DNA from: Eledone cirrhosa
Lineage: Eukaryota
Length of the DNA: 64,000 nt
Assembly (NCBI GenBank): GCA_964016885.1
Contig: OZ024743.1
Location: 268,212,001-268,276,000 of the forward strand
Direction: 5' to 3'
Shown: piece after piece, positions 3,430 through 57,737 of the stretch
Layout: every line of letters begins with the position of its first letter
How positions within the stretch are numbered: position 1 is the stretch's first letter
Translations under genes and position numbers: made by a program
Notes under the pieces: generated by a model
What the model saw: the letters and a program-made list of their open reading frames with translations, nothing else
Told to the model about the DNA's origin: nothing
The model's database searches: none

Positions 3430-4654
<1,225 letters not shown>

Positions 4655-31757: not shown

Positions 31758-31807
<50 letters not shown>

Positions 31808-32066
31808 TTTCTTTATTAACCACAAGGGTTTACATAAAGTAGACATTAAGGACAGTGCAGGACAATGCAGGACGGTACAAATGGGCATTTCTGCGTGTAA
31901 AAAACAAAAACAGAGGATGTAACAAAAATAACAATGAAAATAACAATGAAAAATTCCCCAATAGGGGGGAGACTTCGGAGGGACATTTGTGGAGAAAGCC
32001 CAGTAAAAAGCCACAATGACCCTGACCTCCAAGGCAAGTGCCCTCTCCCAGTTTTCCACCTTTAAT

Positions 32067-35000
32067 TTACAGATATATACTCAGAGTAGGCCCATTCACT
32101 CGGGCCATTCTTGCTTCTCTCACCCGTCTTTCAACAAAATGCTGGGAAGAGAGCATTTCCCTCTCTACTCTGATTTTCCTTTTCAAATGAAATTTGAAAA
32201 AGTCAATCAGACCATCACCGAAGAGGTAAGTGCTCGTCTTCAGCCCTTTCAAACGTGTCCACCATACTATCTCTTTCGCCATGGCCACCAGACAGATAAA
32301 AACTGCCTGCCCTTCCCGGCTAAAGGAGGAGGGCGGGGCAATCCTCACGATGGACTCAGATGATAGCCGGATCCGTCCTAAACGCGACAGCAGGTGTTCG
32401 ACATAAACCCACAAGTCAGCAATTTTCGGACACTGGACGAGTGCGTGCAGGACGGTTTCGTCGCCCTGTGCGCATCTCGGACATGCCCGGCTGACGGCAC
32501 CTCCATGCCTGTAGAGTTTATCCCGAACTGGCAAGGCTCCTCGGTAGCACTGCCAGGCCAGAGATTTCTGGAAGTTGTCCATAGGCCCTGGCCCGAAAGT
32601 TCTTCCGAAGAGATTAGCTAGTTGATTTTCGTCGACGCCTAGAGTTTCCCCAAATACGTCGTCGCTCTTCCCCTCCACTAATCCTCTATAGAACGCCGAG
32701 GTGGAGTTTCCACCGATCACATTGCCCGATTGGTCGAGGGCTGTGAGCGCCTGAAGACATTCCAGTCTCCAGGCGCTCCCTCTCGGTCTTCGCTTGACCC
32801 AGGACTGCAGCTCCGTCAAGGAAACGAGCTTGGGAAATACGTGTCTAGCAAACGGCAACCACACCTGATCACCGTCGAGGAAGAGGTGGAGATGTCGTAG
32901 CTTGAGCGCGTGCCTGCGCATCATCAGCCACGGCATGCCCAGCCCTCCACGTAGCGGGTGTTGACAACAGATGGACCGCCTGACCATCGGAGCGCGTCCC
33001 TTCCACAAAAAGCGAAAGAGCAAACGCTCCAGCGCAGTCAGGCGAGGCTTAGGACAAGGTACGACGGTCAGGGGGTAGCAGATGACAGAAGCGATGTACG
33101 CGTTAGCCACCTCCGCTCAACCTTTCAGGGATAGCTTCCTCTCCACCCATTTCTGGGTGAGAGAAGCCACCCTGCTCGTCACCTCGTCCCAGTTTTTGTC
33201 CGTCTGGAGGTCCGGACCGAACCAGACCCCTAGCAATTTAAACGGTCCGTCCGTCCAGCGTCCGACGACGCTGTTGGACGGCATGGACCTGCCTCTCCAG
33301 GTGACGAGCTGCAGGCCCACTGACTTTTCCTGGTTCATCATTGCTCCTGTCACCGCTTCGTATTCTCTTAGTGTAGTGCCGAACGCCTCGATGTGTTTGG
33401 CGTTCGACACCACTACGGTGACATCGTCCGCATATGCTGACACGGATCTTCCGCATCCTAGTTCGCGCTGGACGCCCCTCAACGTCTTCAGTTTGTGCAG
33501 TAATGGCTCGAGAGTCAATACGTACAAGAGGGATGAGAGGGGACATCCTTGGCGGACCGAGCGCATGATGTTGAACGGTTCCGACAGGTGACCGTTCACT
33601 CTCACCACAGAGCAGATGTCGCTGTGCATGGCAGCGATCCAGCCTCTGAAGACGGGCCCAAAGCCAGCCGCCCTCAGGACTGCCGCTAGGTAACGATGGT
33701 CGACCCTATCGAAAGCTTTTGACTGATCTAAATTGATCAAGGACCCACCCGTGCCAGGTTCCCTAGCTACCCTCTCTACGATGTATCGCATGAGGTGGAG
33801 GTTGTCGTGGATGGATCTGTCGGGAATGGCGCATGTCTGTGCCTCTCCCACCAGACCACCAACGACAAGCGCCAACCTCTTTGCTAGCACCTTGGCCAAA
33901 ATCTTGAACTCTGTGTTTAATAGAGTTATGGGCCGGAAATTATCTATGTTATCCCCCTTGTTCGGATCCTTTCTCAGCAGTGCCACCGCTCCTCGGCTCA
34001 CAGAACTGGGAATTCTCCCGTACTGTTGCCAGTTGCAGTAGACGTCCACCAAGAGGCCTCCGAACCAGTCTGGCATCTGTACGTAAAGTTCATAGGGCAG
34101 ACCATCCAAACTAGGCGATTTACCCCTTGTGCAGCCAGTCATTGCCTCCCTTACTACAGCGGTTGTTATCAGCTTTTGGCAACACTTCACCTCAGTGGCC
34201 AAGAGCCGCGGCAGTCCGTCGAGGTAGACACTAAAGTCCATTCCTCGACCCGGCCCACCGCTGCCCCCGAACAGCTGAGCGAAGTGTCGCTGAAAAGCTT
34301 CACACATATGCCCGGGATCGAGTAGCATGCGCCCGTCGTGGTCCACGAAAGACCGGATCGTGGCTTTGATGCCACGACGCGTCTCCGCCACTCAGGCCCA
34401 TTGAACGGCTTTCGTCCCCTCGTGTCTGAGAGCACGCACCCTTGCTCTGACAACGCAGCCTTTCTTCTTTGTATTGAAGAATTGGTCAAGGGCCAATTTC
34501 GCCGCAAGCACGTCGGTCGCAATGCCTTTGCTAAGCGCTTCGTCTAATTTTCTAACTACTTCTCCCCCTGCTCTATTTTTCTGTATTGCTAAAGCCTTAC
34601 TAAACCTAATGGATTCTATTCTAATCGCTCTTTTCAGAGCAAACCACCACTTGTTGTTGATGATGGCCCCCATCAACGACCGCTTAACTAGTTCGCTAAT
34701 CCGGTCTCTGTAGGCCTTGCGCGCTGGTAAGGACGCGTTTAGCTTCCAGTAGCCGGGTCCTCGTCTATGAAGCCTATCTAAGTCAAGCACACAGATCACG
34801 AATTTGTGGTCCGTGTAGCTGACTATCTTGAATTGTGGACAGCCTATGCTAGACTTATCTATTTCCCTACAAAATACTCTATCTAGATATGATCTGGATG
34901 ACCCTATGCGATTTGTCCAAGTCCACATTGGCACATTCGGGAAATCCAATCGGTACCTGTCAGAGAGTTCAAAGCGCCTGAGCAGGTTGGTGAGGCTCTT

Positions 35001-35486
35001 GCAGACTCCACCCCTATCCGCTAATCCCACACAGTCCCAGCGTGCATCTAAGATCCCGTTCCAGTCGCCCACTAACACTAAAGAGCGGGACGTTCCAAAG
35101 AAGGTCTCCAGACGCCGGAAGAAATCAGGCCGCCCTGCTCCTGTCGTGGCATAGACGGCCACTAGCCTGAAAGCTTGCCCGTCTCCGCTGGTCACGTCCA
35201 GCACCACCAGCTTACCCTCTGGGTCCAGGAAGATGGCCCGTATGGCGAGATCCAAACCTCTCCGAAAAAGCACAGCAACTCCTCCCCCCGATCCAGGACG
35301 GCTGGGAGGTGCGTACATATCGTAGCCGCCGAAGATTGGTGCGAAGACCCGTGCTTCGGAGATTCTGGTCTCGCTGATGGCCACTACATCTATGTTTAGT
35401 GACCTGAGGTCGTTGAGCAGATGACCCTGCTTCCATGACGACCCCAAGCCACGCGCATTTATGCTGCCTATTCTGAGTGAGGTCAT
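32067..35486 (-). pseudogene. ORF2 of copy A: APE endonuclease, RT and C-terminal Cys/His motif; one frame with two TGA stops
   Basis: ORFs 34392-35486, 33117-34391 and 32067-33110 are in the same frame; SINARGL, ISET, GDWN, YLDR, TDHK, RQGCPLS, YADD, CPRC..ETVLHALVQC. Confidence 0.95.
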
Positions 35487-35521
35487 GTTTAAAATAGAGT
35501 GGAAAAGATGGGAAAGACCAC

Positions 35522-37620
35522 TTACCGTACTTTTCGTAGAGGAGGGATGGTTTTTACATCCCTTTTCACTTGATCGTCTGGTGAAGGGACCGTTGAATCG
35601 TCCCTTCGGCTGGTCGTCGGCTCTTCTATGAGTATGTCCGAATATACTCTTCGATTGATAGTTCCTCCTAGGTCTCTGAAATCACCAACTGCGTTGGGGA
35701 ATTTCGTTTTAATGTTTGTATTGTTTCTGTGCTATTTTTAGCAGTCTTATGTTAGTTGGCGTTTTGATTGGTGCTGGTATTATGTAGTCGTGTTGTGAAA
35801 TGTCTGTGTGTTCAATTATGTAAGTCATTAGTTTCTTGTTGTGTGTATTTATTGCCGTGCATTTGTTTTTCTGGGGGTGGGGTGTGGTTCTGCTATATTA
35901 TTGTCGTTGTTGCTGGGTGTGTGTGTTTTGTTGTTGTGTTTGCGATGTTGGTGCTTGTGGTGGTGGTGTTGAAGGTGTTGTTGGCGGTGGGGTTGTCGCC
36001 GGTGGTGATGGTGGTGCTAGTGTGGGTGGTGATGGTGTTGGTGGTGTTGCTGCTGTGAGTCTCTTTGCAGTAGACTTTACCCTTTTCTCATTTCTTTCCT
36101 CCTTTTTCAAAGGCGACGATGCGCTGCTTCTGCGGTTGTGCCTTCTTACGACCTTTTGCCATCCCTCTCCCACCTCACACTCCATGTCTGATTCTGTGAG
36201 GTCGGGGAGGGGTACCAGCTCCACTCTTTCACTTGTTGTTGTTGGTGATGTTTGCACTGGAGTCAATGTTGCAGCTGCATTTGGTATTGCTGTTGTTGTT
36301 GTTAATATTTCCACTGCTGCTGCTGTTTTTGGTTTCCGTGGCGTGGGTATGGGTGCCACGGACCTATCGTTCCTGGTTGCCGCTTGTCCTGTTGCTGGTG
36401 GCCGTGGAGCCGGTTTCGAAAGGAGGCGGGTTTTCTCCTTTCTCAGGGTCTTCTCGTTGCAGAAGGTCCTGAGGGGAGTCTTCGATCCACAGCGAAAGCA
36501 TTTCGGGCGTTTGCCCTCAACACTTATGGGCAGTTGAGTGCCGTTATCGAAGTCTATCACATCCGGGATAGCTTCGATGCACTCCTGGTTGGTTTGGATT
36601 AACATTTCAATGGAGGTGCCGACCCAATCTTCTCTTACTTTTTTCTGTACTTGCAGTACAGTTGTTTTGTCCTCGATTGCGACGAGGACAGATGCGGCCA
36701 GCCAAGAAGGGGCCATCCCGGGGGGGGGACGTGGGTCAGTTTGACCCTCACAATTTTTTGCCCGCAGTAGGAGGGCACCAACACCATTTCCTCGCTCCTT
36801 AGGGTCACTACGGATTGAGCCTTTGCTTCTTGGGGTGTGGCAAAAAGTACGTCTACGGTGGCATATTTTTTGCCTCGGGTGATGTGCGTTTTCCGCTGCC
36901 GCACATACCCCAAGGCTTTTTGTATTTGAGCCTCTGTGGCTCTTTCAACCCTACGGGATTTTGTACTTACTGTACGGTACGTGACCGTACAGTGCTGTTG
37001 GGTTTCGAAAAATTTTCCGCTGCCTTGCAGATTGCTCGGTGTCCAGTCTTTGTCACCATCTTCTTCGCTTCCTCTAATTCCTCATTTGTTATGAGGATTG
37101 TTTCCAGGTTCTTCGCGATACCTGCAAACGAGATTGGTTTTTCTTTGCTGCTGTTGTTGTTGTTGTTGTCGTCAGAGCTGCTGTTACTTTTGTTGTTGCT
37201 GCAGGTACTACGACTACTGCCTCCGCCGCTGTTGCTGTGGTTGTTGTTGGTGTTGCTGCTGCTAATGCTGTTGTTGTTTATACTGCTGGTGATGCTGTTG
37301 CGGCTTCTACTGTTGTTTTCATTGTCACTGTTGCTGTTGTTATTACGGCTGCTACAGCTATTATTCCTGACGTCAGACGAATGAAATGGGTTTTCGTATT
37401 TCCCGCACACCTGTTTCGTCGTTGTCGTCGTGGAGAAACCTTGCACGCTTTGCACGAGACTTTTCTTTTCTGTCGTCGCTTGCGAAAGAGAAGTGAGAGA
37501 GAAAGACACATTTAAAGAAGGGAGGGAGAGAGACAATCTTCTCTCTGCTGTAGTGATGATTGAGGAAGAAGAAGACGGAATGAGTGGGAGTGACCTATGA
37601 AACTTCTTTTTCGTAGCCAT
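35522..37620 (-). pseudogene. ORF1 of copy A (poly-Asn N-terminus, RRM-like core, zinc knuckle, Pro/Thr-rich tail), frameshifted
   Basis: Fragments 36967-37656, 36635-36913 and 35898-36716; RPKCFRCGSKTPLRTFC (CCHC in copies C and D). Confidence 0.8.
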
Positions 37621-37836
37621 GTCGTTTTTTTTGTTTAAAATAAATATTGGGCACAAAACCCCAATAAGCAGTTATTTAACCCCGAAGGGCCAAATAACGG
37701 GCAGAAAAACCCCTCTCACGAGGAGGAGGGTATTTTTGTCTACAAGTTCGTTAAAGTTTTAAACAATTTACAATTGTTATAGCGTTCAAAATTTACAATA
37801 CCTTACAGAGCCGAGCCTCCGTCAACCATAGCATTC

Positions 37837-37866
<30 letters not shown>

Positions 37867-37867
<1 letters not shown>

Positions 37868-40800
37868 CTTTCTTTATTAACCGCATGGGTTTACATAAAG
37901 TAGACATTAAGGACAGTACAGGACAATACAGGACGGTACAAATGGGCATGTCTGCGTGTAAAAAAACAAAAACTGGATGTAACAAAAATAACAATGAAAA
38001 ATTCCCCATTAGGGGGGAGAATTCCGAGGGACATTTGTGGCGAAAGCCCATTAAAAGACAACAGTGACCCTGACCACCAGGGCAAGTGCCCTCTCCCAGT
38101 TTTCCACCTTTAATTTAGAGACACATACTCAGAGTAGGCCCATTCACTCGGGCCATACTTGCTTCTCTCACACATCTTTCAACAAAATGCTGTGAAGAGA
38201 GCACTTCCCTCTCTACCCTGATTTTTCTTTTCAAATCAAATTTGAAAAAGTTAATCAGGGCATCACCGAAGAGGTAAGTGCTCGTCTTCAGCTCTTTCAA
38301 ACGTGTCCACTATACTATCTCTTTCGCCGTGGCCACGAGACAGATAAAAACTGCCTGCCCTTCCCGGCTAAAGGAAGAAGGCGGAGCAATACTCACGATG
38401 GACGCACCTGACAGCTGGATCCGTCCTACACGCGACATAAACCCACAAGTCAGCAATGCTCGGACACTGGATGAATGTGTGTAGGACGGTTTCGTCGCCC
38501 TGCGCGCATCTCGGACACTCCCGGCTGACCGTACATCCATGCCTGTAGAGTTTATCCCGAACTTGCCATGCTCCTCGGTAGCACTGCCAGGCCATTTCTG
38601 GAAGTTGTCCATAGGCCCCGGCCCGAAGGTCCTTCCGAAGAGATTGGCTAGTTGATTTTCGTCGACGCCTAGAGTTTCTCCTAGTACGTCGTCGGTCTTT
38701 CCCTCCACTAATCCTCTATAGAACGCCAAGGTGGAGTTTCCACTGATCACATTGCCCGATTGGTCGAGGGCTGTGAGCGCCTGAAGACATTCCAGTCTCC
38801 AAGCGCTCCCTCTCGGTCTTCGCTTGACCCAAGACTGCAGCTCCGTTAAGGAGACGAGCTGGGAAAGACGTGTCTAGCAAACGGCGACCACACCTGATCA
38901 CCGTCGAGGAAGAGGTGGAGATGTCGTAGCCTGAGCGCGTGTCTGCGCATCATCATCCACGACATGCCCAGCCCTCCACGTAGCGGGTGTTGACAGCAGA
39001 TTTACTTCCTGACCATTGGAGCGCGTCCCTTCCACAAAAAGCGAAAGAGTAAACTCTCCACCGCAGTCAGGCGGGGTTTAGGACAAGGTACGACGGTCAG
39101 GCGGTAGTAGATGACGGACGCGATGTACGCATTAGCCACCTCCGCTCGACCTTTCAGGGATAGTTTCCTCTCTGTCCATATCTGGGTGAGAGAAGCCACC
39201 CTGCTCGTCACCTCGTCCCAGTTTTTGTCCGTTTGGAGGTCCGGACCGAAACCAGACCCCTACCAATTTAACCGGTCCGTCTGTCCAGCGCCGACGATGC
39301 TGTTAGACGGCATGGACCTGCCTCTCCAGGTTCCGAGCTGCAGGCCCATGACTTTTCCTGGTTGATCATTGCTCCTGTCACCGCTTCGTATTCTCTTAGT
39401 GTAGTGCCGATCGCCTCAATGTGTTTGGCGTTCGTCATCACTAAGGTGACATCGTCGGCATATGCTGACACGGATCTTCCGCATCCTAGTTCGCGCCGGA
39501 CCACCCTCAACGTCTCCAGTTTGTGCAGTAATGGCTCGAGAGTCAATACGTACAAGAGGGACGAGAGGGGACATCCTTGACGGACCGAGCGCATGATGTT
39601 GAACGGTTCCGAAAAGTGACCGTTCACTCTCACCACAGAGCAGATGTCTCTGTGCATGGCAGCGAACCAGCCTCTGAAGACGGGCCCAAAGCCAGCCGCC
39701 CTCAGGACTGCCGTTAGGTAACGATGGTCGACCCTATCGAAAGCTTTCGACTGGTCTAAATTGATCAAGGACCCACCCGTGTCAGGTTCCCTAGCTACCC
39801 TCTCTACGATGTATCGCATGAGGTTGAGGTTGTCGTGGATGGATCTGTCGGGAATGGCGCAAGTCTGCGCCTCTCCCACCGACCACCAACGACAAGCGCC
39901 AACCTCTTTGCTAGCACCTTGGCCAAAATCTTGAACTCTGTGTTTAGCAGAGTTATGGGCCGGAAATTATCTATGTTATCCCCCTTGTTCGGATCCTTTC
40001 TCAGCAGCCCCACAGCTCCTCGGCTCACAGAGCTGGGAATCCTCCCGTTCTGTTGCCAGTTGCAGCTGACGTCCTCCAAGAGGCCTCCGAACAAGTCTGG
40101 CATTTGTACGTAAAGTTCATAGGGCAGACCATGCAAACCAGGCGATTTACCCCTTGTGCAGCCAGTCATTGCCTCCCGTACTTCAGCGGCTGTTATTGGC
40201 TTTTCGCAACACTCCGCCCCAGTGGCCGAGAGCTGCGGCAGTCCGTCGAGATAGACACTAAAGTCCATCCCTCTATCCGATCGCCGCTGCCCCGAACAGC
40301 TGTGCGAAGTGTCGCTGAAAAGCTTCACATATTTTACCGAGATCGAGTAGCATCCGCCACTCGGGCCCATTGAACGGCTTTTGTCCCCTCGTGTCTGAGA
40401 GCACGCACCCTAGCTCTGACAACGCAGCCTTCGTGCTTTGCATTGAAGAATTGGTCAAGGGCCAATTTCACCGCAAGTACGTCGGTCGCGATGCCTTTGC
40501 TAAGCGCCTCGTCTAATTTTCTAACTAATTCTCCCTCTGCTCTATTTTTCTCTATTGCTAAAGCCTTACTAAACCTAATGGACTCTTTTCAGAGCAAACC
40601 ACCACTTGTTGTTGACGAAGGCCCCCGTAAACGCCCGCTTAACTAGTTCGCTAATCCGGTCTCTGTAGGCCTTGCGCGCTTGTAAGAACGCGTTTAGCTT
40701 CCAGTAGCCGGGTCCTCGTCCATGAAGCCTATCTAAGTCAAGCACACAGATCACGAATTTTTGATCCGTGTAGCTGACTATCTTGAATTGTGGACAGCCT

Positions 40801-43597
40801 ATGCTAGACCTATCTATTTCCCTACAAAATACTCTATCTAGATATGATCTGGATGACCCTATGCGATTTGTCCAAGTCCACATTGGCACATTCGGGAAAT
40901 CCAATCGGTACCTGTCAGACAGTTCAAAATGCCTGAGCAGGTTGGTGAGGATTTTGTACCCTCCTCCTCTATCCGCTGATCCCACACAGTCCCAGCGTGC
41001 ATCTAATATCCCGTTCCAGTTGCCCACTAACACTAAAGTGCGGGACGTTCCAAGAAAGGTCTCCAGACGCCGGAAGAAATCAGGCCGCCCTGCTCCTGTC
41101 GGTGCATAGACGGCCCCTAGCCTGAAATCTTGCCCGTCTCCGCTGGTCACGTCTAGCATCACCAACTTACCTTCTGGGTCCAGGAAGATGGCCCGTATGG
41201 CGAGATCCAAACCTCTCCGAAAAAGCACAGCAACTCCTCCCCCCGATCCCGGACGTCTGGGAGATGCGTACACATCGTAACCGCCGAAGATCGGTGCGAA
41301 GGCCCGTGCTTCGGAGATTCTGGTCTCGCTGATGGCCACTACATCTATGTTTAGTGACCTGAGATCGTTGAGCAGGGGGCCCTGCTTCCATGATGACCCC
41401 AAGCCACACGTATTTATGCTACCTATTCTGAGTGAGGTCATGTTGAAATGGAGTGGAAAAGATGGGAAAGACCACTTACCTTACTTCTTGTTGAGGAAGG
41501 ATGGTTTCTCCATCCTTTTCACTGCTTGTGGCTTACTCCGAAAGGATGTCCTTATAAATCCTCCTGGAGAGTGTTTGTCGGAAGTCTCCGATGTATTTCG
41601 GGAATTTTTGTTTTAGTGCGTGTACGTTTTCTGTGTGATGCGAGTGATTTGTATGTGTGGAGGCGGCGTGAACTTTTGGGTTGTTGTGTAGCCATTTTCT
41701 GTGATGCTGGTGTTGTGTTGGATGCAGTTGGATGTAATTGGTTGTTGTTCAAATGTAAAGCTGTGTAGTGTGTATCGTTTTGGTTGTTTTGTTTTGATTG
41801 CGTTTGTTGTGGGTTTGTTTCCGTTTCGCTTTTTGGTGACTTTTGTGGTGTAGGTGATGGTGGTGTTGGGGTTAATGATGGTGATGGTGTTTGTGTTTGT
41901 GGTGATGGGGTTGGTGATGCTGGTTGGGATTGTGGCATATCTGTCCTAACTTTTAGTTTGATAGTTTATTTGTTTCCCTATGTATTTTGTTTTTGGAGGG
42001 GGAGGGAAGATAATTTTTTTTCTTTTTTGGTTTCTTTTTTTCTTTTTTCCTGATACCGTTTACCACTCCTCGTCGTCACAATCTGTCTCCAGTTTTGATA
42101 GGCCGGGGAGTGGAGGATCCTCCACAGGCGTTGGTTTTGGTTGTGGCGTAGTGGATGGTGTAGGCGCTGGTGCTAGTTCTGGCGCGTTGGGTGGTGGTGT
42201 TGTTGGTTTTGCTACTGTTGCTGGGGTTGTTGCAGTTACAGTTGCTTCTGTTGTTGCTGCTACAGTTGTTGCTGCCATCTCTGCTGCTGGAGGTGTTGAT
42301 GATTGAATCACTGTGGTGGGTAAGAGAGGTGGCCTCAACCTTTTAGCCTGAGGGCAGAAAGCCCTTAGGTGGGTTCCTTCACCACAAACGACATACGATT
42401 ACGGCGAGGTGACTGCCGTCAGTGAGGTCTATTACCTCTGCGATCTCCTAAATGCTTTTTTGGTCCGCTTGGATCAGGATCTCCATGAGTGATCCGGACC
42501 AGTTCTCCTGCTTTTCTTTCGCTATCTCGATTATCTTGGTGTTGGCTTCGATGCCGGCGAGGACGGCAGAAATTAGCCAGGGAATTTCGATGGCCGGTGG
42601 AACGTGGGTCACCCTCATCTTTACGAGTCTCTGGCCACAATAGCTTGGGACGAGTGTGAAGTCGTCACTTCTTAATGTGGCCATGGAGTGTTCTCTAGCC
42701 TCCTGTGGTGTTTCAAAGAACACGTCCACGGTTCCATATTTCTGCCCACGTCTGATGTGGGTTTTTTTGCCCACACATGTCCCAAAGCTTTTTGGATTTG
42801 GGACTCGGATGCCCGTTCCACTCGGCGCGATTTTATATTAATTGTTCGATAAGACACGGTGCATAGGCGCCGATGCTCCATTTTATTAAGTGTGGGGGGG
42901 GGTTAAGGCTGAGAGTGTAGCCATCTTCTTTACCATTTTTTTGGCTTCTTCTAATTCCTCCTGAGTTACCTGGAATGCTTCGCACTTTTTTGCTACTCTG
43001 GCAAAACTCAGGGTGGTTTTATTAATTTCATTGTTGCTGTTGTTGTTATCGTTATTTTTGTTAGTGTTAATTATAGTTTCAGTTGAGGTGGTGGTGGCGT
43101 CAGTGGTGTTCGGTGTGGAAGAGTTCATTTTGGTTGAATTCATTTCGATATCACGAGTTAATTTATTTTTTCTTTTGTTTCTGTTGTCGCTGTGGTGGTG
43201 GTGGGGTTGCGGCTTTAACACCTGCAGTCATTGGTAATGGCGGGAAATGAATGTCTGCCTGAGACAAATTAAAAATATTGCTACTGCTTATACTTTTAGT
43301 GTTGGCAAACGTAGTAATATTTACAATGGTGGTGTCGGTGTGAGGTTTTAGTTTGTTAGGAAGGACTGACTCTGAGTCCTCCATGATTTTTCAAAGAAAA
43401 ATTTTTGTTTGATAATTATAAAAGTTTAAATTTTGGGCTCAAGGCCCCTATCTTTTTGGGTGTCCTTTTCAGATAATAATGTATGTGCACTTATATACAG
43501 TTAACAATAAAAATATTCCATAAATGGCAATTTTAAACAACTGAAAATAACAAACCTTTGCGAAGCTCACGATGATACGATTTACTACGTAGGTCGC
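37867..43597 (-). mobile_element. Full-length Tx1 LINE (copy B), frameshifted; ORF1 ~43384-41476, ORF2 41441-38115
   Basis: ORF2 fragments nearly identical to copy A; ORF1 and 5'UTR match copy D; (AAT)n at 37837-37866 and 43598-43646. Confidence 0.95.
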
Positions 43598-43598
43598 C

Positions 43599-43646
<48 letters not shown>

Positions 43647-43649
<3 letters not shown>

Positions 43650-45018: not shown

Positions 45019-45026
45019 ATAACAAC

Positions 45027-45074
<48 letters not shown>

Positions 45075-45248
45075 TGTTTCTACTTTTGGCACAAGGCCAG
45101 CAATTATCCAGTGCATTACTGGTACTTTATTTTATCGACCCCGTAAGGATGAAAGGCAAAGTTAACCTCGACGGGATTTGAACTCAGACCGTAAAAGGGA
45201 CGTAACTATGCTGGAAAGCATGGCGTCCGACTCTCTACCGATACTGCC
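45075..45248 (-). mobile_element. tRNA-derived SINE inserted in the Dong-2 tail
   Basis: Reverse complement of the 25726 family; (AAT)n on both sides. Confidence 0.9.
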
Positions 45249-45260
45249 AATAATAATAAT

Positions 45261-45520
45261 GCTTTCTTTATTAACCACAAGGGCTTGCACAAAGTAGACA
45301 TTAAGGACAGTACAGGACATTAATGACAGTACAGGACATTAAGAAAGGTACAAAAGGTCATTTCTGCGTGTAAAAATACAAAAAACAGAGGATGTAATAA
45401 AAAAAATAATAATAATAATAATTGTTTCTACTTGTGACACAAGGCCAGCAATTAACCAGTAGATTACTGGTACTTTATTTTATCGACCCCATAAGGATGA
45501 AAGGCAAAGTTAACCTCAGC
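45261..45520 (-). mobile_element. Tx1 3'UTR fragment (45261-45405), (AAT)n, then SINE 3' fragment (45422-45520)
   Basis: Matches 31806-31930 and 45075-45170 respectively. Confidence 0.8.
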
Positions 45521-47594: not shown

Positions 47595-47618
47595 AATAAT
47601 AATTTATAATAATAATAA

Positions 47619-47649
<31 letters not shown>

Positions 47650-47651
<2 letters not shown>

Positions 47652-50600
47652 ATTCTTTATTAACCACAAGGGTTTACATAAAGTAGACATTAAGGACAGT
47701 ACAGGACAATACAGGACGGTACAAATGGGCATTTCTGCGTGTAAACAAAAAACAGAGGATGAAATAAAATAACAAAGAAAAATTCCCCAATAGGGTGGAG
47801 ATTTCCGAGGGACATTTGTGGAGAAAGCCCATTAAAAGACCACAGTGGCCCTGGCCACCAGGGCAAGTGCCCTCTCCCAGTTTTCCACCTTTAATTTACA
47901 GACACATACTCAGAGAAGGCCCATTCATTCGGGCCATACTTGCTTCTCTCACCCATCTTTCAACAAAATGCTGGGAAGAGAGCACTTCCCTCTCTACTCT
48001 GATTTTCCTTTTCAGATGAAATTTGAAAAAGGTAATCAGGGCATCACCGAAGAGGTAAGTGCTCGTCTTCAGCTCTTTCAAACGTGTCCACCATACTATC
48101 TCTTTCGCCATGGCCACCAGACAGATAAAAACTTCCTGCCCTTCCCGGCTAAAGGAAGAGGGCGGGGCAATCCTCACAATGGACTCAGCTGATAGCTGGA
48201 TCCGTCCTACACGTGACAGCGGGTGTTCGACATAAACCCACACTGGACTAGTGCGTGCGGGACGGTTTCGTCGCCCTGTGCGCATCTCGGACATGCCCGG
48301 CTGACGGCACCTCCATGCCTGTAAAGTTTATCCCGAACTGGCAAAGCACCCCGGTAGCACTGCCAGGCCAGGGATTTCTGGAAGTTATCCATAGGCCCCG
48401 GCCCGAAAGTCCTTCCGAAGAGATTGGCTAGTTGATTTTCGTCGACGCCTAGAGTTTCTCCAAGTACGTCGTCGCTCTTCCCCTCCACTAATCCCCTATA
48501 GAACGCCAAGGTGGAGTTTCCACCGATCACATTGCCCGATTGGTCGAGGGCTGTGAGCGCCTGAAGACATTCCAGTCTCCAAGCGCTCCCTCTCGGTCTT
48601 CGCTTGACCCAGGACTGCAGCTCCGTCAAGGAGACGAGCTGGGGAAAAACGTGTCTAGCAAACGGCAACCACACCTGATCACCGTCGAGGAAGAGGTGGA
48701 GATGTCGTAGCCTGAGCGCGTGTCTGCGCATCATCAGCCTCGGCATGCCCAGCCCTCCACGTAGCGGGTGTTGACAGCAGATGGACCGCCTGACCATCGG
48801 AGCGCGTCCCTTCCACAAGAAGCGAAAGAGCAAACGCTCCAGCGCAGTCAGGCGGGGATTAGGACAAGGTACGACGGTCAGGCGGTAGTAGATGACGGAC
48901 GCGATGTACGCGTTAGCCACCTCCGCTCGACATTTAAGGGATAGGTTCCTCTCGGCCCATTTCTGGGTGAGAGAAGCCACCCTGCTCGTCACCTCGTCCC
49001 AGTTTTTGTCCGTCTGGAGGTCTGGACCGAACCAGACCCCTAGTAATTTAACCGGTCCGTCTGTCCAGCGCCCGACGACGCTGTTGGACGGCATGGACCT
49101 GCCTCTCCAGGTGCCGAGCTGCAGGCCCACTGATTTTTCCTGGTTGATCATTGCTCCTGTCACCGCTTCGTATTATCTTAGTGTAGTGCCGATCGCCTCG
49201 ATGTGTTTGGCGTTCGACACCACTACGGTGACATCGTCGGCATATGCTGACACGGATCTTCCGCATCCTAGTTCGCGCGGGATCCCCCTCAACGTCTCCA
49301 GTTTGTGCAGTAATGGCTCGAGAGTCAATACGTACAATAGGGACGAGAGGGGACATCCTTGGCGCACCGAGCGCATGATGTTGAACGGTTCCGAAAGTGA
49401 CCATTCACTCTCACTACAGAGCAAATGTTGCTGTGCATGGCAGCGATCCAGCCTCTGAAGACGGGCCCAAAGCCAGCCGCCCTCAGGACTGCCTCTAGGT
49501 AACGATGGTCGGCCCTATCGAAGGCTTTCGACTGATCTAAATTGATCAAAGACCCACCCGTGCCAGGTTCCCTAGCTACCCTCTCTACGATGTATCGCAT
49601 GAGATGGTGGTTGTCGTGGATGGATCTGTCGGGAATGGCGCATGTCTGTGCCTCTCCCACCAGACCACCAACGACAAGCGCCAACCTCTTTGCTAGCACC
49701 TTGGCCAAAATCTTGAACTCTGTGTTTAGCAGAGTTATGGGCCTATAGTCATCTATGTTATCCCCCTTGTTCGGATCCTTTCTCAGCAGCGCCACCGCTC
49801 CTCGGCTCACAGAGCTGGGAATCCTCCCGTTCTGTTGCAGTAGACGTCCGCCAAGAGGCCTCCGAACAAGTCTGGCATTTGTACGTAAAGTTCATAGGGC
49901 AGACCATCCAAACCAGGCGATTTACCCCTTGTGCAACTAGTCATTGCATCCCGTACTTCAGCGGTTGTTATCTGCTTTTCGCAACACTCCGCCTCAGTGG
50001 CCGAAAGCCGCGGCAGTCCGTCGAGGTAGACACTAAAGTCCATCCCTCGATCCGGCCCGCCACTGCCTCCGAACAGTTGAGCGAAGTGTCGCTGAAAATC
50101 TTCACACATTTGCCCGGGATCGAGTAGCATGCGCCCGTCGTGGTCCACCAATGACCGGATCGTGGCTTTGTTGCCACGACGCGTCTCCGCCACTCGGGCC
50201 CATTGAACGGCTTTCGTCCCCTCGTGTCTGAGAGCACGCACCCTAGCTCTGACAACGCAGCCTTCGTGTTTTGCATTGAAGAATTGGTCAAGGGCCAATT
50301 TCGCTGCAAGTACGTCGGTCGCGATGCCTTTGCTAAGCGCCTCATCTAATTTTCTAACTAGTCCTCCCTCTCCTCTATTTTTCTCTATTGCTAAAGTCTT
50401 ACTAAACCTAATGGACTCTATTCTAATTGTTCTTTTCAGAGCAAACCACCACTTGTTGTTGACGATGGCCCCCATCAACGCCCGCTTAACTAGTTCGCTA
50501 ATCCGGTCTCTGTAGGCCTTTGGCGCTGGTAAGGACGCGTTTAGCTTCCAGTAGCCGGGTCCTCGCCTATGAAGCCTATCTAAGTCAAGCACACAGATCA

Positions 50601-53525
50601 CGAATTTGTGGTCCGTGTAGCTGACTATCTTGAATTGTGGACATCCTATGCTAGACCTATCTATTTCCCTACAAAATACTCTATCTAGATATGATCTGGA
50701 TGACCCTATGCGATTTGTCCAAGTCCACATTGGTACATTCGGGAAATCCATTCGGTACCTGTCAGACAGTTCAAAACGTCTGAGCAGGTTGGTGAGACTC
50801 TTGCACCCTCCTTCCCTATCCACTAATCCCACACAATTCCAGCGTGCATCTAAGATCCCGTTCCAGTCGCCCACTAACACTAAAGAGCGGGACGTTCCAA
50901 GAAAGGTCTCCAGACGCCGGAAGAAATAAGGCCGTCCTGATCCTGTCGGGGCATAGACGGCCACTAACCTGAAAGCTTGCCCGTCTCCGCTGGTCACGTC
51001 CAGCACCACCAACTTACCTTCTGGGTCCAGGAAGATGGCCCGTATGGCAAGATCCAAACCTCTCCGAAAAAGCACAGCAACTCTTCCCCCGATCCCGGAC
51101 GGCTGGGAGATGCGTACACATCGTAGCCGCCGAAGATCGGTGCGAAAGCCTGTGCTTCGGAGATTCTGGTCTCGGTGATGGCCATTACATCTATGTTTAG
51201 TGACCTGAGGTCGTTGAGCAGGTGGCCCTGCTTCCATGACGACCCCAAGCCACGCGCATTTATGCTGCCTATTCTGAGTGAGGTCATGTTGAAAAGGAGT
51301 GGAAAAGATGGGAAAGACCACTTACCTTACTTCTCGTAGGGGAAGGTCGGTTTTTTCCATCCTTTTCACTGCTTGTGGCCTCCTCAGGAAGGATGTCTTT
51401 ATAAATCCTCCTGGAGAGTGCTTGTCGGAAGTCTTTGGGGAATTTTTTGTTTTAGTGTCATGTACGTTTTCTGTGTGATGCGAGTGATTTGTATGTGTGG
51501 AGGTGGTGTGAATTTTGGGGTTGTTGTGTAGTCTTTTTCTGTGATGCTGGTGTTGTGTTGGATGTAGTGTAATAATTGCTTGTTGTTCAAATTTAATGCT
51601 GTGTAGTGTGTATCGTTTTGGTTGTTTTGTTTTGTTTGCGTTTGTTGTGGGTTTGTTTCTGTTTCGCATTTTGGTGACTTTTGTGGTGTAGGTGATGGTA
51701 GTGTTGGAGTTAATGATGGTGATTGTGTTGGTGTTTGGGTTGATGGGGTTGGTGATGCTGGTTTGGATGGTGGCATATCTGTCCTAACTTTTTTGTTTCT
51801 TAGTTTATTTGTTTCCCTCTGTATTTTGTTTTTGGAGGGGGAAGGAAGAGAATTTTTTCTTTTTTGGTTTCTTTTTTTTTCCGGATATCGTTTCCCACTC
51901 CTCGTCGTCACAATCTGTCTCCAGTTGTGATAGGCCGGGGAGTGGAAAATCCTCCACAGGCGTTAATTTTGGTTGTGGCGTTGTGGATGGTGTAGGCGCT
52001 GGTGCTAGTTCTGAAGCGTTGGGTGGTGGTGGTGTTGGTTTTGCTGGTGGTGGTGGTGGTGTTGGTTTTGCTACTGTTGCTGGGGTTGTTGCTGTTATAG
52101 TTGCTTCTGTTGTTGCTGCTACAGTTGTTGCTGCCATCTCTGCTACTGGTGGTGTTGATGGTTGTGTTACTGGGGTGGGTAGGAGAGGTGGCCTCAACCT
52201 TTTAGCCTGAGGGCAGAAAGCCCTTAGGTGGGTTCCTTCACCACAAACGACACACCTAGGTCTTCTGCCCTCGACAATTACCGTGAGGTGGCTGCCGTCA
52301 GTGAGGTCTATTACCTCTGGGATCTCCTCAATGCTTTTTTGGTCCGCTTGGATCAGGAGCTCCATCCCAGATCCGGACCAGTTCTCCTGCTTTTCTTTTG
52401 CTATTGCTATTATTTTTGTGTTGGCTTCGATGCCGGCGAGGACGGCCGCTATTAGCCAGGTAATTTCGATGGCCGGTGGAACGTGGGTCACCCTGATCTT
52501 TACGAGTCTCTGGCCACAATAGCTTGGGACGAGTGTGAAGTCGTCACTTCTTAATGGGGACATGGAGTGTTCTCTAGCCTCCTCTGGTGTTTCAAAGAAC
52601 ACGTCCACGGTTCCATACTTCTGCCCACGTCTGATGTGGGTTTTTCTTGCCCACACATGTCCCAAAGCTTTTGGGATTTGGGACTCGGATGCCCGTTCCA
52701 CTCGGCGCGATTTTACATATATCGTTCGATACGACACGGTGCATAGGCGCCGATGCTCCATTTTATTAGGTGGGGGAGTGAGGCTGACCCTGTACCCATC
52801 TTTCTTTACCATTGTTTGGCATTTTCTAAATCCTCCTGAGTTACCGTAAATGCTTCGAACTGTTTTGCTACTCTGGCGAAACTGAGGGGGGGGGGTTTAT
52901 AATGTCATTGTTGTTGTTGTTGCTATCGTTTTTTGTGTTAATATTAATTTTAGTTTCAGTTGTGGTGGTGGTGACGTCAGTCGTCTTTGGTGGGGAAGAG
53001 TCCATTTTGCTTGATTTCATTTCGACATCACGAGTTAATTTATTTTTTTCTTCTTTTGTTTCTGTTGTCGCGGTGGTGGTGGTGGTGGTGGTGGTTGTCG
53101 CGGTGGTGGTGGTGGTGGTGGTGGAGGCTTTAACACCTGCAGTCATTGGTAATGGCGGGAAATGAATGTCTGCCTGAGACAAATTAAAATATTTCTAGTG
53201 CTTATATTTTTTTTAGTGTTGGCAAACGTAGTAACATTTACAATTGTGGTGTCGGTGTGAGGTGTTAATTTGTGAGAAAGGCTTTCAGCTGCTTGGTGCA
53301 GAGGTGAATTAGCCATTTTTTTTTAAAGAAATTTTTTGATAATAATAAAAGTTTAAATTTTGGGCACAAGGCCCCAATCTTTTTGGGTTTCCTTTTCGGA
53401 AAACATTGTATGTGCGCTTGTATATGGTTAACAATAAAATTTTTCCATAAATGGCAATTTTTAACAAACGGAAATAACAAACCTTTGCGGAGCTCACGAT
53501 GATACGATTTACTACGTAGGTCGCC
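47650..53525 (-). mobile_element. Full-length Tx1 LINE (copy D), frameshifted; ORF1 ~53316-51322, ORF2 51287-47896
   Basis: APE, RT and zinc-finger fragments; ORF1 RRPRCVVCGEGTHLRAFC; 5' end GGCGACCTACGTAGTAAATCG identical to copy B; (AAT)n on both sides. Confidence 0.95.
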
Positions 53526-53558
<33 letters not shown>

Positions 53559-53559
<1 letters not shown>

Positions 53560-54462
53560 TGTACTGCGAAAAGTGAGAGCAGGATACAGGTTGGGAAAGG
53601 GAGGGCTTACCATCAATCACCTCCTCTTCATGGACGATCTTAAGCTCTTCGGGAAGAGTGAGAAGGAGTTGGATGTGCTTGTTGACACTGTCCGTATTCT
53701 CAGCAATGATATATGTATGCAATTTGGTATTAGTAAGTGTGGAGTCATTGTGATGAGGAGGGGTAAGTTGAGCAGAAGTAACGGAATCCAGGTACCAACA
53801 GGTGAGATGATAAAGGAAATTGACTCTGAAGAAGGATATAAGTATTTGGGTGTTCTGGAGGCTGATGACACCAAGAACAAAAAAATGAAGGAATTGATAA
53901 GAACTGAATACATTCGGAGAGTAAGGAGCACATTAAAGTCACATCTGAACAGTAGGAATGCCATAAGTGCAGTAAATTCCCGAGCTGTGTCTATTATTAG
54001 GTACAGTGCGGGAATTCTGAGATGGAATGTTGCTGAACAAAAAGAAATGGATAGGAAGACTAGGAAACTATTGACTATCTACAACATGTTCCACAAGAAA
54101 AAAGATCGTGCCTGATTGTAGATGTAACCTGCCCATTCGACACGAGAGCGCAAGAGAAGGAGAGGGAGAAAATTAACCGATACCAGGACTTAAAGTGGGA
54201 GGTAAAATGGATTTGGAACTGCCATGAAGTCAAAGTGATCCCGATTGTCATAGGCGCACTAGGGACTATCTCCAAAAGTTTCCAGGGATGGTTAAAGAAA
54301 ATTGGCCCCTTCACGCTTTTTGGAACGCTTCAAAAGTTATGCTTGCTGGGAACAGCAAGAACCCTCCGATACGTCCTGAATATCTGAGGCTGCAGGTAGT
54401 GGCTTGATATTCATTTCAACAAACTTTCCAGTTAACTGACATCAATGACTGAGACTCAAAGA

Positions 54463-54463
<1 letters not shown>
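53559..54463 (+). mobile_element. R4/Dong-clade element, 5'-truncated with a ~680-bp internal deletion at ~54097 (Dong-3)
   Basis: HLLFMDDLKL, YKYLG; jumps from MFHK to the region just after RPD; same 3'UTR as Dong-1/2; tail at 54464-54511. Confidence 0.9.
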
Positions 54464-54511
<48 letters not shown>

Positions 54512-54512
<1 letters not shown>

Positions 54513-54700
54513 TGTTTCTACTTTAGGCACAAGGCCAGCAATTACCCAGGGCATTACTGGTACTTTATTTTATCGACCCCGTAAGGATGAAAGGCAAAGT
54601 CAACCTCGGCGGGATTTGAACTCAGATCGTAAAGGGACGTAACTATGCTGGAAAGCATGGCGTCCGACCCTCTACCGATACTGCCAATCCACCGCTCTTA
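54512..54700 (-). mobile_element. Full-length tRNA-derived SINE in the Dong-3 tail
   Basis: Reverse complement of the 25726 family; (AAT)n on both sides. Confidence 0.9.
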
Positions 54701-54726
54701 AATAATAATAATAATAATAATAATAA

Positions 54727-54881
54727 GGACTAGATAAAAGCGCCAAAGCAACGTTCACCAGAGGAAAGCTGCTGAAAAGTTCAGACATTAATCTTGATCG
54801 AGGGAATGTGATAAGAGAACTTGAACAAGAGGAAACTTACAAATATCTAGGCGTTTGTGAAGGAGACGGAATCAAGCACTC
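54727..54881 (+). mobile_element. Fragment of a second, diverged R4/Dong family
   Basis: GLDKSAKATFTRGKL...IRELEQEETYKYLGVCEGDGIKH aligns to GISKCGV..RGKL..IKEIDSEEGYKYLGVLEADGIK; starts at (AAT)n. Confidence 0.75.
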
Positions 54882-56866
54882 GACTTACCTTCTGGGTCTA
54901 GGAAGATGGCCCGTATCGCGAGATCCAAGCCTCTCCGAAAAAGGACGGCAACCCCTACCCCCGATCCTGGACGGCTGGGAGATGCGTATATATCGTAGCC
55001 GCCAAAGATCGGTGCGAAGGCTTGTGCTTCGGAGATTCTGGTTTCACTGATGGCCACCACATCTATGTTTAGTGACCTGAGGTCGTTGAGCAGGTGACCC
55101 TGCTTCCAACATGACCCCAGGCCACGTGCATTTATACTGCCTATTCTGAGTACCGCCATGTTTGATGAGAAACGGGCAAGTGAGAAAGAGTCACTTACCT
55201 TGTTCGTGTGGTGAAGGGTGAGTAGAACCGTCCCTTTCGCTGGTCATGGGTGTTTCCAAGAGGATGTCAGTGTATATCCTCTTGGTAACCGACGCTCTGA
55301 AGTCTCCAACTGCGTTGGGGAATTTTAGTTTTAAATGTTTGTACTGTTCTATTTTAATTTCAATGATGCTTATGTTTGTCGGGAGAGTTCTTGGTGTTGG
55401 TGGGGTGTAGTAGTTGTTTTCTGTGATGACTGTCTGTTGCTTTATATATTGTATGAGTTCTTTTTTTGCCATGTTTATGGCTGTGTACTTTTTGGAGAGA
55501 GGGGTGATGTTGTTGCTGTTTCGTGTGTATGTCTCGTTGTGTTTGCGTTGTTGGTGTTTTTGGTGATGCTGGTGGTGGTGTGGTTGCTGTTGTCAGTGGG
55601 GCTTGTGGTGGTGTTGCTGCAAGTTTCCTTGCTGCATTTACCCTTCTTTGTATGCCTTCGCTTTTGGAGGGTGAATCTAAGAGTTTTTTTTTTTTGTTTT
55701 TTGTGGCAGACCGTTTGCCACTTTACTCCTGCCTCAAACTCTATGTAGGATTTTGTGGCGTCTGGGAGGAGTATGTGCTCCACGGCTGTTGGTGGTGGTA
55801 GTGGAGCCCTCTTCGGCAATTTTGTTGCTGGTGTAGCTACTTCAAATGTAGCTATTGGTGTTGCCGGCACCGATGCTGCTGCTTTAGTTGTCCGTGGCCT
55901 TGGTACGGGTGCTACGGACGTTGCCCTCCTACTCATCGTGGAGGGGGCTTCTTCGTTTGTTGCCTGCCCTGCTCTTGGTAGCAGTGGACCAGCTATTGGA
56001 AGGAGAGGGGCCTTCTTCGCTGTCTTCTGCGGACAAAAGGCGGCCCTGAGGTGACCCTTCGACCCAGAGAAAACATTTTGGCCGTCTTCCTTCTACACTT
56101 ATAGGGAGTTGGAGTCCTTCCGCGATGTCTATGATATCGGGAATAGCGTCGATACATTCCTTGTCAGTTTGTATAAGCATTTGCATTCCTATACCTGACC
56201 AGTTCTCTCTCCCTATTTTTTCTACTTGCAGCATGGTCGTCCTGTTCTCGATTCCAGCAAGGACAGACGCGGCCAGCCAAGGTATGGGCACGTCGAGTGG
56301 GACCTGGGTCACTCTGACCCTCACAATTTTCTGCCCGCAGTAGGAGGGCACCAAGACTATCTCCTCACTCTTTAGGGTTTCCAAAGAGTGAGATTTTGCT
56401 TCCTGGGGGTGGCGAAAAGTACGTCTACTGTGGCGTACTTTCTGGCTCGGGTGATGTGGGGTTTGTGTGCCCAGACGCACCCCAAGGCCTTTTGGATTTG
56501 AGCCTCCTTGGCTCTCTCCACTCGATGTGAGATTTTGCTAACGGTGCGGTAAGTCACCGTCCGTAGCTGCTGGTCCTTGAAAAAATCGGGTGGAGGTTTC
56601 AGGGAAACTCTATTTGCGCTTCTTGTCACCATGGCCCTTGCGACTGACATCTCCTCCTCTGTGACTAACACTGTCTCGATATTTTGGGCGACAGGTGCAA
56701 AAGAAGTGGTCCCGTTTTCAGCAGCACCACTATTGCTACCGAAACTGGTCTTACTGATGATGCTGAGATCGCTATTACAGGTATCGGTGTCATTGTTGTT
56801 GTTTTCGTTGGTACAGTTGTTGGTGTTTTGTTGTTGTTTTCGTTGATACTGTTGCTGTTGTTACTG
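54882..56866 (-). mobile_element. Tx1 LINE copy E: A-like ORF1 plus the first ~90 codons of ORF2; 3' part lost
   Basis: KYATVDVLFATP, SEEIVLVPSYCGQKIVRV; ORF2 start MAVLRIGSINARGLG at 55159; (AAT)n at 56867-56888. Confidence 0.9.
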
Positions 56867-56888
56867 TAATAATAATAATAATAATAAT

Positions 56889-57503
56889 GATTTCTTTATT
56901 AACCACAAGGGTTTACATAAAGTAGACATTAAGGACAGTGCAGGACAATACAGGACGGTACAAATGGGAATTTCTGCGTGTAAAAAAAAACAGAGGATGT
57001 AATAAAAAAATAACAATGAAAAATTCCTCAATAAGGGGGAGACTTCCGAGGGACATTTGTGTAGAAAAGCCCATTAAAAGGCCACAGTGACCTTGACCAC
57101 AAGGGCAAGTGCCCTCTCCCAGTTTTCCGCCTTTAATTTACAGACACATACTCAGAGTAGGCCCATTCACTCGGGCCATACTTGCTTCTCTCACCCATCT
57201 TTCAACAAAATGCTGGGAAGAGAGCACTTCCCTCTCACTGAAGACGAGCACTTACCGAAGAGGTAAGTGCTCGTCTTCAGCCCTTTCAAACGTGTCCACC
57301 ATATTATTTCTTTTGCCATGGCCACCAGACAAATAAAAACTGCCTGCCCTTCCCGGCTAAAGGAAGAGGGCGGGGCAATCCTCACAATGACCTCAGCTGA
57401 TAGTTGGATCCGTCCTACACGTGACAGGAGGTGTTCGACATAAACCCACAAGTCAGCAATGCTCGGACACTGGACGAGTGCGTGCAGGACGGTTTCGTCG
57501 CCC
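56889..57503 (-). mobile_element. Tx1 LINE 3' fragment (copy F)
   Basis: 3'UTR and ORF2 C-terminus match copies A, B and D. Confidence 0.9.
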
Positions 57504-57737
57504 TCGATAAGGATAAATATATATCAGATATATAAGAACCCTAGAGCAAATATTTATTAAAATAACAGATTAAAGTTTAAGCAAAGAATCGCTGCTTTCA
57601 CCCTAACGGGATCTTCTGTGATAATACATGTAGGATGGATGATGATATGCATAACGTAGAGTATTTTAATTTATTATATCATTGTATACTTACCTGTATG
57701 ACCAGTTCTACTCATTGGTAAACCACGAAACATAGAT

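What the first reader, a model, noticed from the sequence alone, without database searches (positions are those of the whole stretch)
31818..56913. Covarying CUUGU stem-loop shared by Tx1 3' ends and the SINE 3' end: a candidate Tx1-SINE partnership by structure
Seen on the sense strand, about 12 nt before each tail: AACC-CTTGT-GGTT (A 31818-30, D 47662, F 56901), AGCC-CTTGT-GGTT (45273), GGCC-CTTGT-GGCC (C 45534-46), GCC-CTTGT-GGC (H 5289-99), GCC-CCTGT-GGC (G), and in the SINE TGGC-CTTGT-GCCA (11268-80, 45087-99). Stems change compensatorily while the loop is retained (B has loop changes). The SINE also shares the Tx1 orientation and (ATT)n tail. Established: stringent LINEs such as L2/CR1 recognise 3' stem-loops that partner SINEs copy, whereas mammalian L1 relies on poly(A). 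Inference: this L1-clade lineage is stringent-type and mobilises and targets the SINE.
Basis: partly seen in the sequence, partly recalled or inferred. Interest (0 to 1): 0.75.

Follow-up and report, generated by a model that had tools for sequence, protein, structure and literature searches.

The report
SINE borrows Tx1 retrotransposon tail hairpin
A very abundant short jumping element in this animal genome ends much like the microsatellite-seeking L1-group (likely Tx1) retrotransposons beside it and leaves a similar insertion footprint, so their enzyme likely copies it, possibly by recognising a small RNA hairpin predicted at the shared end.

Summary
The hairpins are real. Across 19 clusters of L1-group (likely Tx1) 3' ends a 3-4 bp stem precedes the poly(A) hexamer; one pair covaries cleanly, and the loop is not constant. 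The SINE's last 25 nt match seven Tx1 families at 14-18/25 in register, eight other LINE ends at 10-14/25 off register. SINE copies carry 10-20 nt target duplications starting like an (ATT)n run (41 of 52); an (ATT)n-tailed CR1 rival does not (1 of 16). Young (ATT)n-type Tx1 with open ORF2 abound. So Tx1 likely mobilises this SINE. Against: the hairpin is predicted in few full SINE folds (pair probability 0.05-0.17), no LINE shares an extended tail, and Tx1 targets (ATT)n or (ATCT)n runs, not the SINE. Stringent recognition is untested. A Tx1-SINE pair (SINEU) and stringent plant L1s are published; a shared Tx1-SINE hairpin was not found in seven searches. This scan noted the same pairing twice before on other DNA.

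The parts
31790..37836 (-). L1-group (likely Tx1) element A, full length, ORF1 + ORF2 with stops; (ATT)n on both sides
31818..31830 (-). terminal hairpin of A (4 bp stem, 5-base loop), directly before the poly(A) hexamer
   Evidence: pair probability 0.62-0.83
37850..43598 (-). element B, decayed; hairpin 37879-37891 with two loop changes
45262..45393 (-). short Tx1 3' fragment with hairpin 45273-45285, between two SINE pieces
45525..47590 (-). element C, internally deleted; hairpin 45534-45546
   Evidence: pair probability 0.95-0.99
47650..53525 (-). element D, decayed; hairpin 47662-47674
53362..53374 (-). 5'-UTR hairpin of D that resembles the SINE 3' end (similar one in B near 43440)
54880..56860 (-). 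5' part (ORF1, start of ORF2) of a further Tx1 copy
56890..57504 (-). 5'-truncated Tx1 copy F; hairpin 56901-56913
5270..8810 (-). Tx1 copy H, (ATCT)n-type; hairpin 5289-5299
4645..5240 (-). 5'-truncated Tx1 copy G, (ATCT)n-type young family; hairpin 4667-4677
45075..45255 (-). SINE copy, hairpin 45087-45099, in an (ATT)n run
45423..45521 (-). 5'-truncated SINE copy directly behind the end of C
54513..54700 (-). full-length SINE copy with (ATT)n on both sides
57970..58152 (-). full-length SINE copy
11170..11292 (+). 5'-truncated SINE copy, hairpin 11268-11280, opposite strand to Tx1
25725..25913 (+). full-length SINE copy with about 14 nt target duplication, hairpin mutated
29896..31750 (+). 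Dong/R4-like RT element (clade name recalled), ends in (AAT)n shared back to back with A
43646..45017 (+). Dong/R4-like fragment, ends in (AAT)n shared with the SINE at 45075
53562..54463 (+). Dong/R4-like fragment, ends in (AAT)n shared with the SINE at 54513

Best explanation
The SINE's last 25 bases resemble the 3' end of this genome's L1-group (likely Tx1) retrotransposons and were likely taken from one, and the ORF2 protein of the (ATT)n-targeting families likely copies the SINE, probably by binding the small terminal hairpin predicted in both RNAs. Shown: the shared end in register, the hairpin-compatible pairs in Tx1, the SINE's 10-20 nt target duplications that begin like an (ATT)n run, young intact (ATT)n-type elements. 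Inferred: ORF2p nicks at the start of ATT runs, the short AUU tail pairs with the primer, target-primed reverse transcription follows; hairpin recognition is by analogy with L2 (stem general, loop specific). The nested array in the window results from Tx1, SINE and, on the other strand, Dong-like elements all entering the same ATT runs.
For: Terminal identity 14-18/25 in register (offset -1 to 2) for 7 of 7 Tx1 families, against 10-14/25 at best offsets of 3-38 for 8 of 8 other LINE ends; null for 17 or more: 13 of 2,354,336. Anchor chosen without regard to the hairpin found 111 of 121 ORF2 ends; in 19 usable clusters of 20 the three inner pairs are all pairable, pair 3 being A-U in 7, G-C in 10, G-U in 2 (counted by eye). 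Tx1 hairpin probability 0.76-0.99 in A, C, D, H (inner three pairs). SINE duplications of 10 nt or more in 18 of 24 evenly sampled and 23 of 28 young copies (permuted 2% and 7%); 37 of 41 start with the same five bases as an (ATT)n run. Truncated Tx1 copies show 15-22 nt duplications with non-repeat bases (L193, L195, L017, L055, L069, L078). CR1 has 1 of 16 (a tandem-repeat flank), median 5 nt. At least 50 of the 150 best A-family hits lie in open frames over 1,160 aa; 20 full-length copies are 98.5% alike; young SINEs are 97-99% alike. Of 86 SINE-tail-like matches in 590 kb, 80 had a SINE body, 1 was a clipped SINE, 3 were Tx1 (one 3' end, two 5' UTRs), 2 chance; none another LINE.
Against: In full-length SINE RNA the hairpin has pair probability about 0.05 (25 young copies), mean 0.17 in 124 and 0.10 in 12 copies of two subfamilies; it wins only in the last 45 nt (0.75). 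G-family 0.17. No fold beats shuffles (z -1.85 to 0.88). The pair invariant in all 19 Tx1 clusters (pair 2, C-G) is reversed in the SINE, and no Tx1 carries the SINE-type stem before the hexamer (13 of 13 genome hits were SINEs). Shared stretch is only about 25 nt at about 70%. The seven A-U clusters are one lineage, so independent compensatory events are few. Loop varies in 8 of 19 clusters and is six bases in an older family. Tx1 duplications as a set do not exceed the permuted control (10 of 18 vs 51%; 12 of 15 vs 64%) because flanks are microsatellite. Only 6 of 28 young SINEs sit in three or more ATT units, whereas full-length Tx1 nearly always do. RTE also makes 15-18 nt duplications in some copies (L269, L291). 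A similar hairpin occurs in some Tx1 5' UTRs, where no priming role is expected. Low-copy LINE families were not surveyed.
Confidence: 0.55

Rival explanations
1. Tx1 mobilises the SINE, but not through the hairpin: the shared end is inherited sequence, the Tx1 hairpin serves 3' processing next to the poly(A) hexamer, and priming rests on AUU tail pairing with the nicked target.
For: Hairpin disfavoured in SINE folds; it abuts the poly(A) hexamer in every Tx1 family; loop varies; the published Tx1-SINE pair has no shared 3' end (PMC4494074).
Against: The SINE lost the hexamer yet keeps a pairable stem, the loop and the spacing in both subfamilies; its stem change is on both arms.
Confidence: 0.25
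2. An RTE family or an unsampled low-copy LINE moves the SINE; the likeness to Tx1 ends is old or convergent.
For: RTE copies can have long duplications; survey covered 590 kb, the best Pfam RT hits and their flanks only; a look-alike arises in Tx1 5' UTRs, so such motifs can recur.
Against: RTE ends match at 11-12/25 off register and carry (ATG)n or other tails that the SINE lacks; no non-Tx1 element among 86 tail-like matches.
Confidence: 0.12
3. The abundant young CR1 family, which also ends in a hairpin and (ATT)n, is the partner.
For: Same tail unit, own terminal hairpin, very young copies.
Against: 10-11/25 terminal identity; duplications median 5 nt, 1 of 16 at 10 nt or more, against 41 of 52 for the SINE.
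Confidence: 0.04
4. Tx1 specifically targets the SINE as its insertion site.
For: SINE pieces lie just behind Tx1 ends in 6 of 28 A and 9 of 29 C copies, against about 1% expected from SINE density and 0 of 29 G, 0 of 17 CR1, 0 of 28 RTE.
Against: Upstream neighbours of 20 young full-length copies: 9 Tx1 ends, 1 SINE end; insertion is in ATT runs, not at a fixed site in the SINE; G/H families use (ATCT)n. The adjacency fits SINEs entering Tx1 tails.
Confidence: 0.04

Closest known systems
SINEU / Tx1-Mar in crocodilians (PMC4494074; passages and section 16 read)
   Same: A SINE assigned to Tx1 machinery by shared target preference and overlapping age.
   Different: SINEU has a poly(A) tail and snRNA head, and no LINE sharing its 3' end was found there; here the SINE has a tRNA-like head, shares about 25 terminal nt and a possible hairpin, and the target is an ATT run.
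Stringent L1-clade pairs LINE1-1_ZM / ZmSINE2, ZmSINE3 and L1-1_CR / SINEX-3_CR (PMC3472496, part 1 of 3 read; PMC3747384, passages)
   Same: L1-clade LINE and SINE sharing a 3' hairpin with compensatory stem changes and conserved loop.
   Different: Plants and algae, about 50-80 nt shared, poly(A)-ended; here an animal, target-specific families, about 25 nt, microsatellite ends.
Stringent L2 LINEs ZfL2-1, ZfL2-2, UnaL2 (PMC4176376, passages)
   Same: Model for stem recognised generally and loop specifically by ORF2p.
   Different: Shown by assay there; longer stems; different clade. Here the stem is 3-4 bp and nothing is assayed.
Microsatellite-targeting Tx1 families Kibi and Koshi (seen only as cited in PMC4494074)
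   Same: Tx1 families inserting into microsatellites.
   Different: Those use (TC)n and (TTC)n; these use (ATT)n and (ATCT)n.
Octopus tRNA-derived CORE SINEs OR1/OR2 (seen only as cited in PMC4824008 and PMC4758252)
   Same: Abundant tRNA-type SINE with a central domain in an octopus-like genome (likeness recalled).
   Different: Identity with OR1/OR2 not tested; no partner LINE is named in the passages read.

Membership tests
L1 group of non-LTR retrotransposons | ORF2 with APE endonuclease, RT and C-terminal zinc-binding domain, closest to L1 ORF2p | tested here: met
   Pfam Exo_endo_phos, RVT_1, zf-RVT in intact A and G ORF2; best solved relative human L1 ORF2p, E 1e-51, R2 1e-21
Tx1 clade | RT/EN tree placement with named Tx1 references | not tested
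   43 homologues returned carried no names; no named reference available
Tx1 clade | Target-sequence preference | tested here: met
   20 of 20 full-length A copies end in (ATT)n and 18 of 20 print an ATT run directly upstream; G/H families in (ATCT)n
tRNA-derived SINE | Short, non-coding, high copy, target duplications, 5' truncations | tested here: met
   about 190 nt; 41 3' ends in 400 kb; duplications
tRNA-derived SINE | tRNA-related head with A and B boxes | tested here: inconclusive
   box-like motifs seen by eye against a recalled consensus; ARAGORN and Rfam gave no hit
CORE or Deu SINE superfamily | Central domain homology | not tested
   no reference domain available; 82 copies of a shared central block, 64 with this tail and 18 without
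Stringent SINE-LINE pair | Shared 3'-terminal sequence | tested here: met
   14-18/25 in register, short
Stringent SINE-LINE pair | Shared stem-loop with compensatory changes | tested here: inconclusive
   pairable in all 19 Tx1 clusters and SINE but disfavoured in SINE folds; no tree-aware covariation statistic computed
Stringent SINE-LINE pair | Same insertion signature | tested here: inconclusive
   SINE signature clear; Tx1 signature agrees in single informative copies but does not exceed permutation as a set
Stringent SINE-LINE pair | 3' structure required for movement in cis and in trans | not testable with these tools
   needs a cell assay

The most novel reading that the evidence does not exclude
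An animal L1-group (Tx1) lineage that selects its template by a minimal 3-4 bp terminal hairpin rather than poly(A), and that drives a SINE of roughly 300,000 copies, a main part of this genome's SINE expansion; template recognition (shared hairpin) and target choice (ATT versus ATCT runs) evolve separately across the families.
Probability: 0.4. Interest if true: 0.65.

Novelty: new variant of a known kind. Interest (0 to 1): 0.45.

Why it matters
It would name the enzyme behind one of the largest SINE families of an octopus-like genome and give an animal case of stringent 3' recognition inside the L1 group, bearing on whether poly(A)-dependent mammalian L1 is the derived state (PMC3472496). 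Many intact young ORF2s and sister families with the same hairpin but different targets make both questions directly testable.

Tried and rejected
ARAGORN and Rfam: no hit in the window. Search for a Tx1 family with the SINE-type stem before the hexamer: 13 hits, all mutated SINEs. Pfam RT search of the genome gave mostly one CR1 family and short LTR-type hits, so it was a poor survey of clades. Two seemingly divergent L1-group hits (L084, L089) proved to be old copies 70-77% like other family members; the L089 relatives gave the six-base-loop family. Dong-like elements rejected as partner: followed by (AAT)n on their sense strand, the opposite strand to the SINE, and 11-14/25 off register. 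Set-level Tx1 duplication test uninformative. Homologue search gave no names. One of 20 clusters (L199) was dropped from the pair count as mis-anchored; 10 of 121 ORF2 ends had no anchor. A formal pair-count on an aligned panel of ends was not computed; pair tallies are by eye. One of 60 requested sample stretches did not exist. Seven paper searches found no report of a shared Tx1-SINE 3' hairpin; Repbase entries, the 1994 octopus SINE paper and supplements (SINEBase table, the 58-pair table of PMC3472496) were not seen and may bear on novelty.
Full report
Setting. The window is G000:C4:268,212,001-268,276,000 of a 3.0 Gb genome. The repeat mix (L1/Tx1, CR1, RTE, Dong-R4, Penelope, very many SINEs) matches the list for Octopus vulgaris in PMC13282606 (passages with Table 1); 'octopus-like' is my inference and was not tested. 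Between 29.9 and 58.2 kb lies a nested array of L1-group elements on the minus strand, Dong-like fragments on the plus strand and SINEs, joined by ATT runs. Two further elements (G, H) lie at 4.6-8.8 kb.

Observation. All hairpins are at the stated places. Two of six SINE copies are on the plus strand, G and H end in (ATCT)n, and the SINE tail is mostly its target duplication.

The LINE. Intact ORF2s (1,139 aa for A, 1,150 aa frame for G) carry endonuclease, RT and zinc-binding domains and are closest to human L1 ORF2p among solved structures. Tx1 is the likely sub-clade because of target specificity; no tree was made. Both types are young: at least 50 of the 150 best A hits lie in frames over 1,160 aa, 20 full-length A copies are 98.5% alike, G hits are 97-98% alike, and a third (ATT)n-type family is 94-98% alike. 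All 20 full-length A copies end in (ATT)n and 18 print an ATT run upstream; 9 follow another Tx1 end and 1 a SINE end. The target is the microsatellite, not the SINE.

The hairpin in Tx1. With an anchor blind to the hairpin, 111 of 121 ORF2 ends were placed and fell into 20 clusters, 19 usable. Counted by eye from the loop outward: pairs 1 and 2 are C-G in 19 of 19; pair 3 is A-U in 7, G-C in 10, G-U in 2; pair 4 is A-U 7, U-A 3, G-C 1, G-U 1, unpaired 7. The loop is the one named in the finding in 11 of 19. An older (ATT)n-type family has a six-base loop (4 loci). So covariation is real but thin: the A-U clusters are one lineage. In whole 3' UTRs the inner three pairs have probability 0.76-0.99 in A, C, D, H and 0.17 in G; no 81-nt fold beats its shuffles.

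The SINE end. The SINE is about 190 nt; 41 3' ends in 400 kb extrapolate to roughly 300,000 copies. Its last 25 nt match seven Tx1 families at 14-18 positions with the tails in register; two CR1, three RTE and three Dong-like ends reach 10-14 at offsets of 3-38. A score of 17 or more occurs at about 6 per million positions in masked or shuffled DNA. The best match (18/25) is between the longer SINE subfamily and an (ATT)n-type family. The SINE keeps loop, closing pair and 12-nt spacing, reverses pair 2 on both arms, and has lost the poly(A) hexamer. No Tx1 has the SINE-type stem before the hexamer (13 of 13 hits SINEs). Among 86 tail-like matches in 590 kb no other LINE appeared. Against structure: the hairpin has probability 0.05 in 25 young full-length copies, 0.17 and 0.10 on average in 124 and 12 copies, 0.75 in the last 45 nt alone, because an upstream segment competes.

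Insertion signature. One algorithm with permuted flanks: SINE duplications of 10 nt or more in 18 of 24 sampled and 23 of 28 young copies (controls 2% and 7%), 37 of 41 beginning with the first five bases of an ATT run, one base after the body. The young CR1, which also ends in a hairpin and (ATT)n, has median 5 nt and 1 of 16. Tx1 sets do not exceed their controls because flanks are repeats, but six copies with non-repeat bases show 15-22 nt duplications. RTE copies carry an (ATG)n tail and sometimes a long duplication, so length alone does not exclude RTE; the end sequence does. SINE pieces follow Tx1 tails in 6 of 28 A and 9 of 29 C copies, 2 of 20 young A, and 0 of 29 G, 0 of 17 CR1, 0 of 28 RTE (by eye; the CR1 and G sets are younger, so not matched controls). 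Only 6 of 28 young SINEs lie in three or more ATT units, so the SINE's target is looser than that of full-length Tx1.

Mechanism. Most likely the (ATT)n-type ORF2p nicks at the start of an ATT run, the short AUU end of the RNA pairs with the primer, and reverse transcription starts there; the SINE took the Tx1 terminus and is copied in trans (inferred). Hairpin binding is inferred from L2, where stem and loop swaps were assayed (PMC4176376, passages). I put 0.55 on Tx1 with hairpin recognition, 0.25 on Tx1 without it, 0.12 on RTE or an unseen LINE, 0.04 on CR1.

Known work. SINEU/Tx1-Mar is a Tx1-SINE pair by target, poly(A)-ended, with no shared 3' end found (PMC4494074). Stringent L1-clade pairs with compensatory hairpins are known in monocots and a green alga (PMC3472496; PMC3747384). 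Passages of PMC4824008, PMC4758252, PMC3531059, PMC10294476 and PMC8967140 name no partner for octopus SINEs; PMC6007223 was seen as a listing only. Seven searches found no shared Tx1-SINE hairpin; Repbase and supplements were not seen. Two earlier notes of this scan reach the same pairing on other DNA; they are AI notes, read after my reading was set, and are not independent support.

Verdict. Real observation, likely correct partner, unproven structural recognition, unsupported SINE targeting. New variant of a known kind; interest 0.45.

Noticed in passing
window 53340-53390 and about 43430-43460; L034, L085, L120: B/D-type Tx1 5' UTRs hold a hairpin about 40 nt before ORF1 that resembles the SINE 3' end closely; A, C and G 5' UTRs have a hairpin at the same place with other loops. 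Possible capture of a SINE end or a second binding site.
   Followed up: partly
window 59268-64000: Two Penelope-like copies (RT + GIY-YIG, 634-639 aa frames) as a 2,065 nt inverted pair at 99.95% identity.
   Followed up: no
L043, L049, L096, L224: A second SINE-like family shares the central block but has a different, longer 3' part; its partner is unknown and it would be a control.
   Followed up: no
L002, L005, L114, L115, L293-L312: Tx1 families form head-to-tail chains of different families through the microsatellite; G copies often follow the same other (ATCT)n family.
   Followed up: partly
L356, L304: A SINE end abuts an ATT run in the opposite orientation, against the usual strand rule.
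   Followed up: no
window 31960-31975 and matching places in C, G, H: A second conserved small inverted repeat lies in the Tx1 3' UTR about 150 nt before the end; absent from the SINE.
   Followed up: no
window 13784-29100: Many short inverted-repeat, MITE-like elements around (TA)n runs.
   Followed up: no
L044, L042, L085, L229: At least three Dong-like families, all ending in (AAT)n and often back to back with Tx1 or SINE ends.
   Followed up: partly
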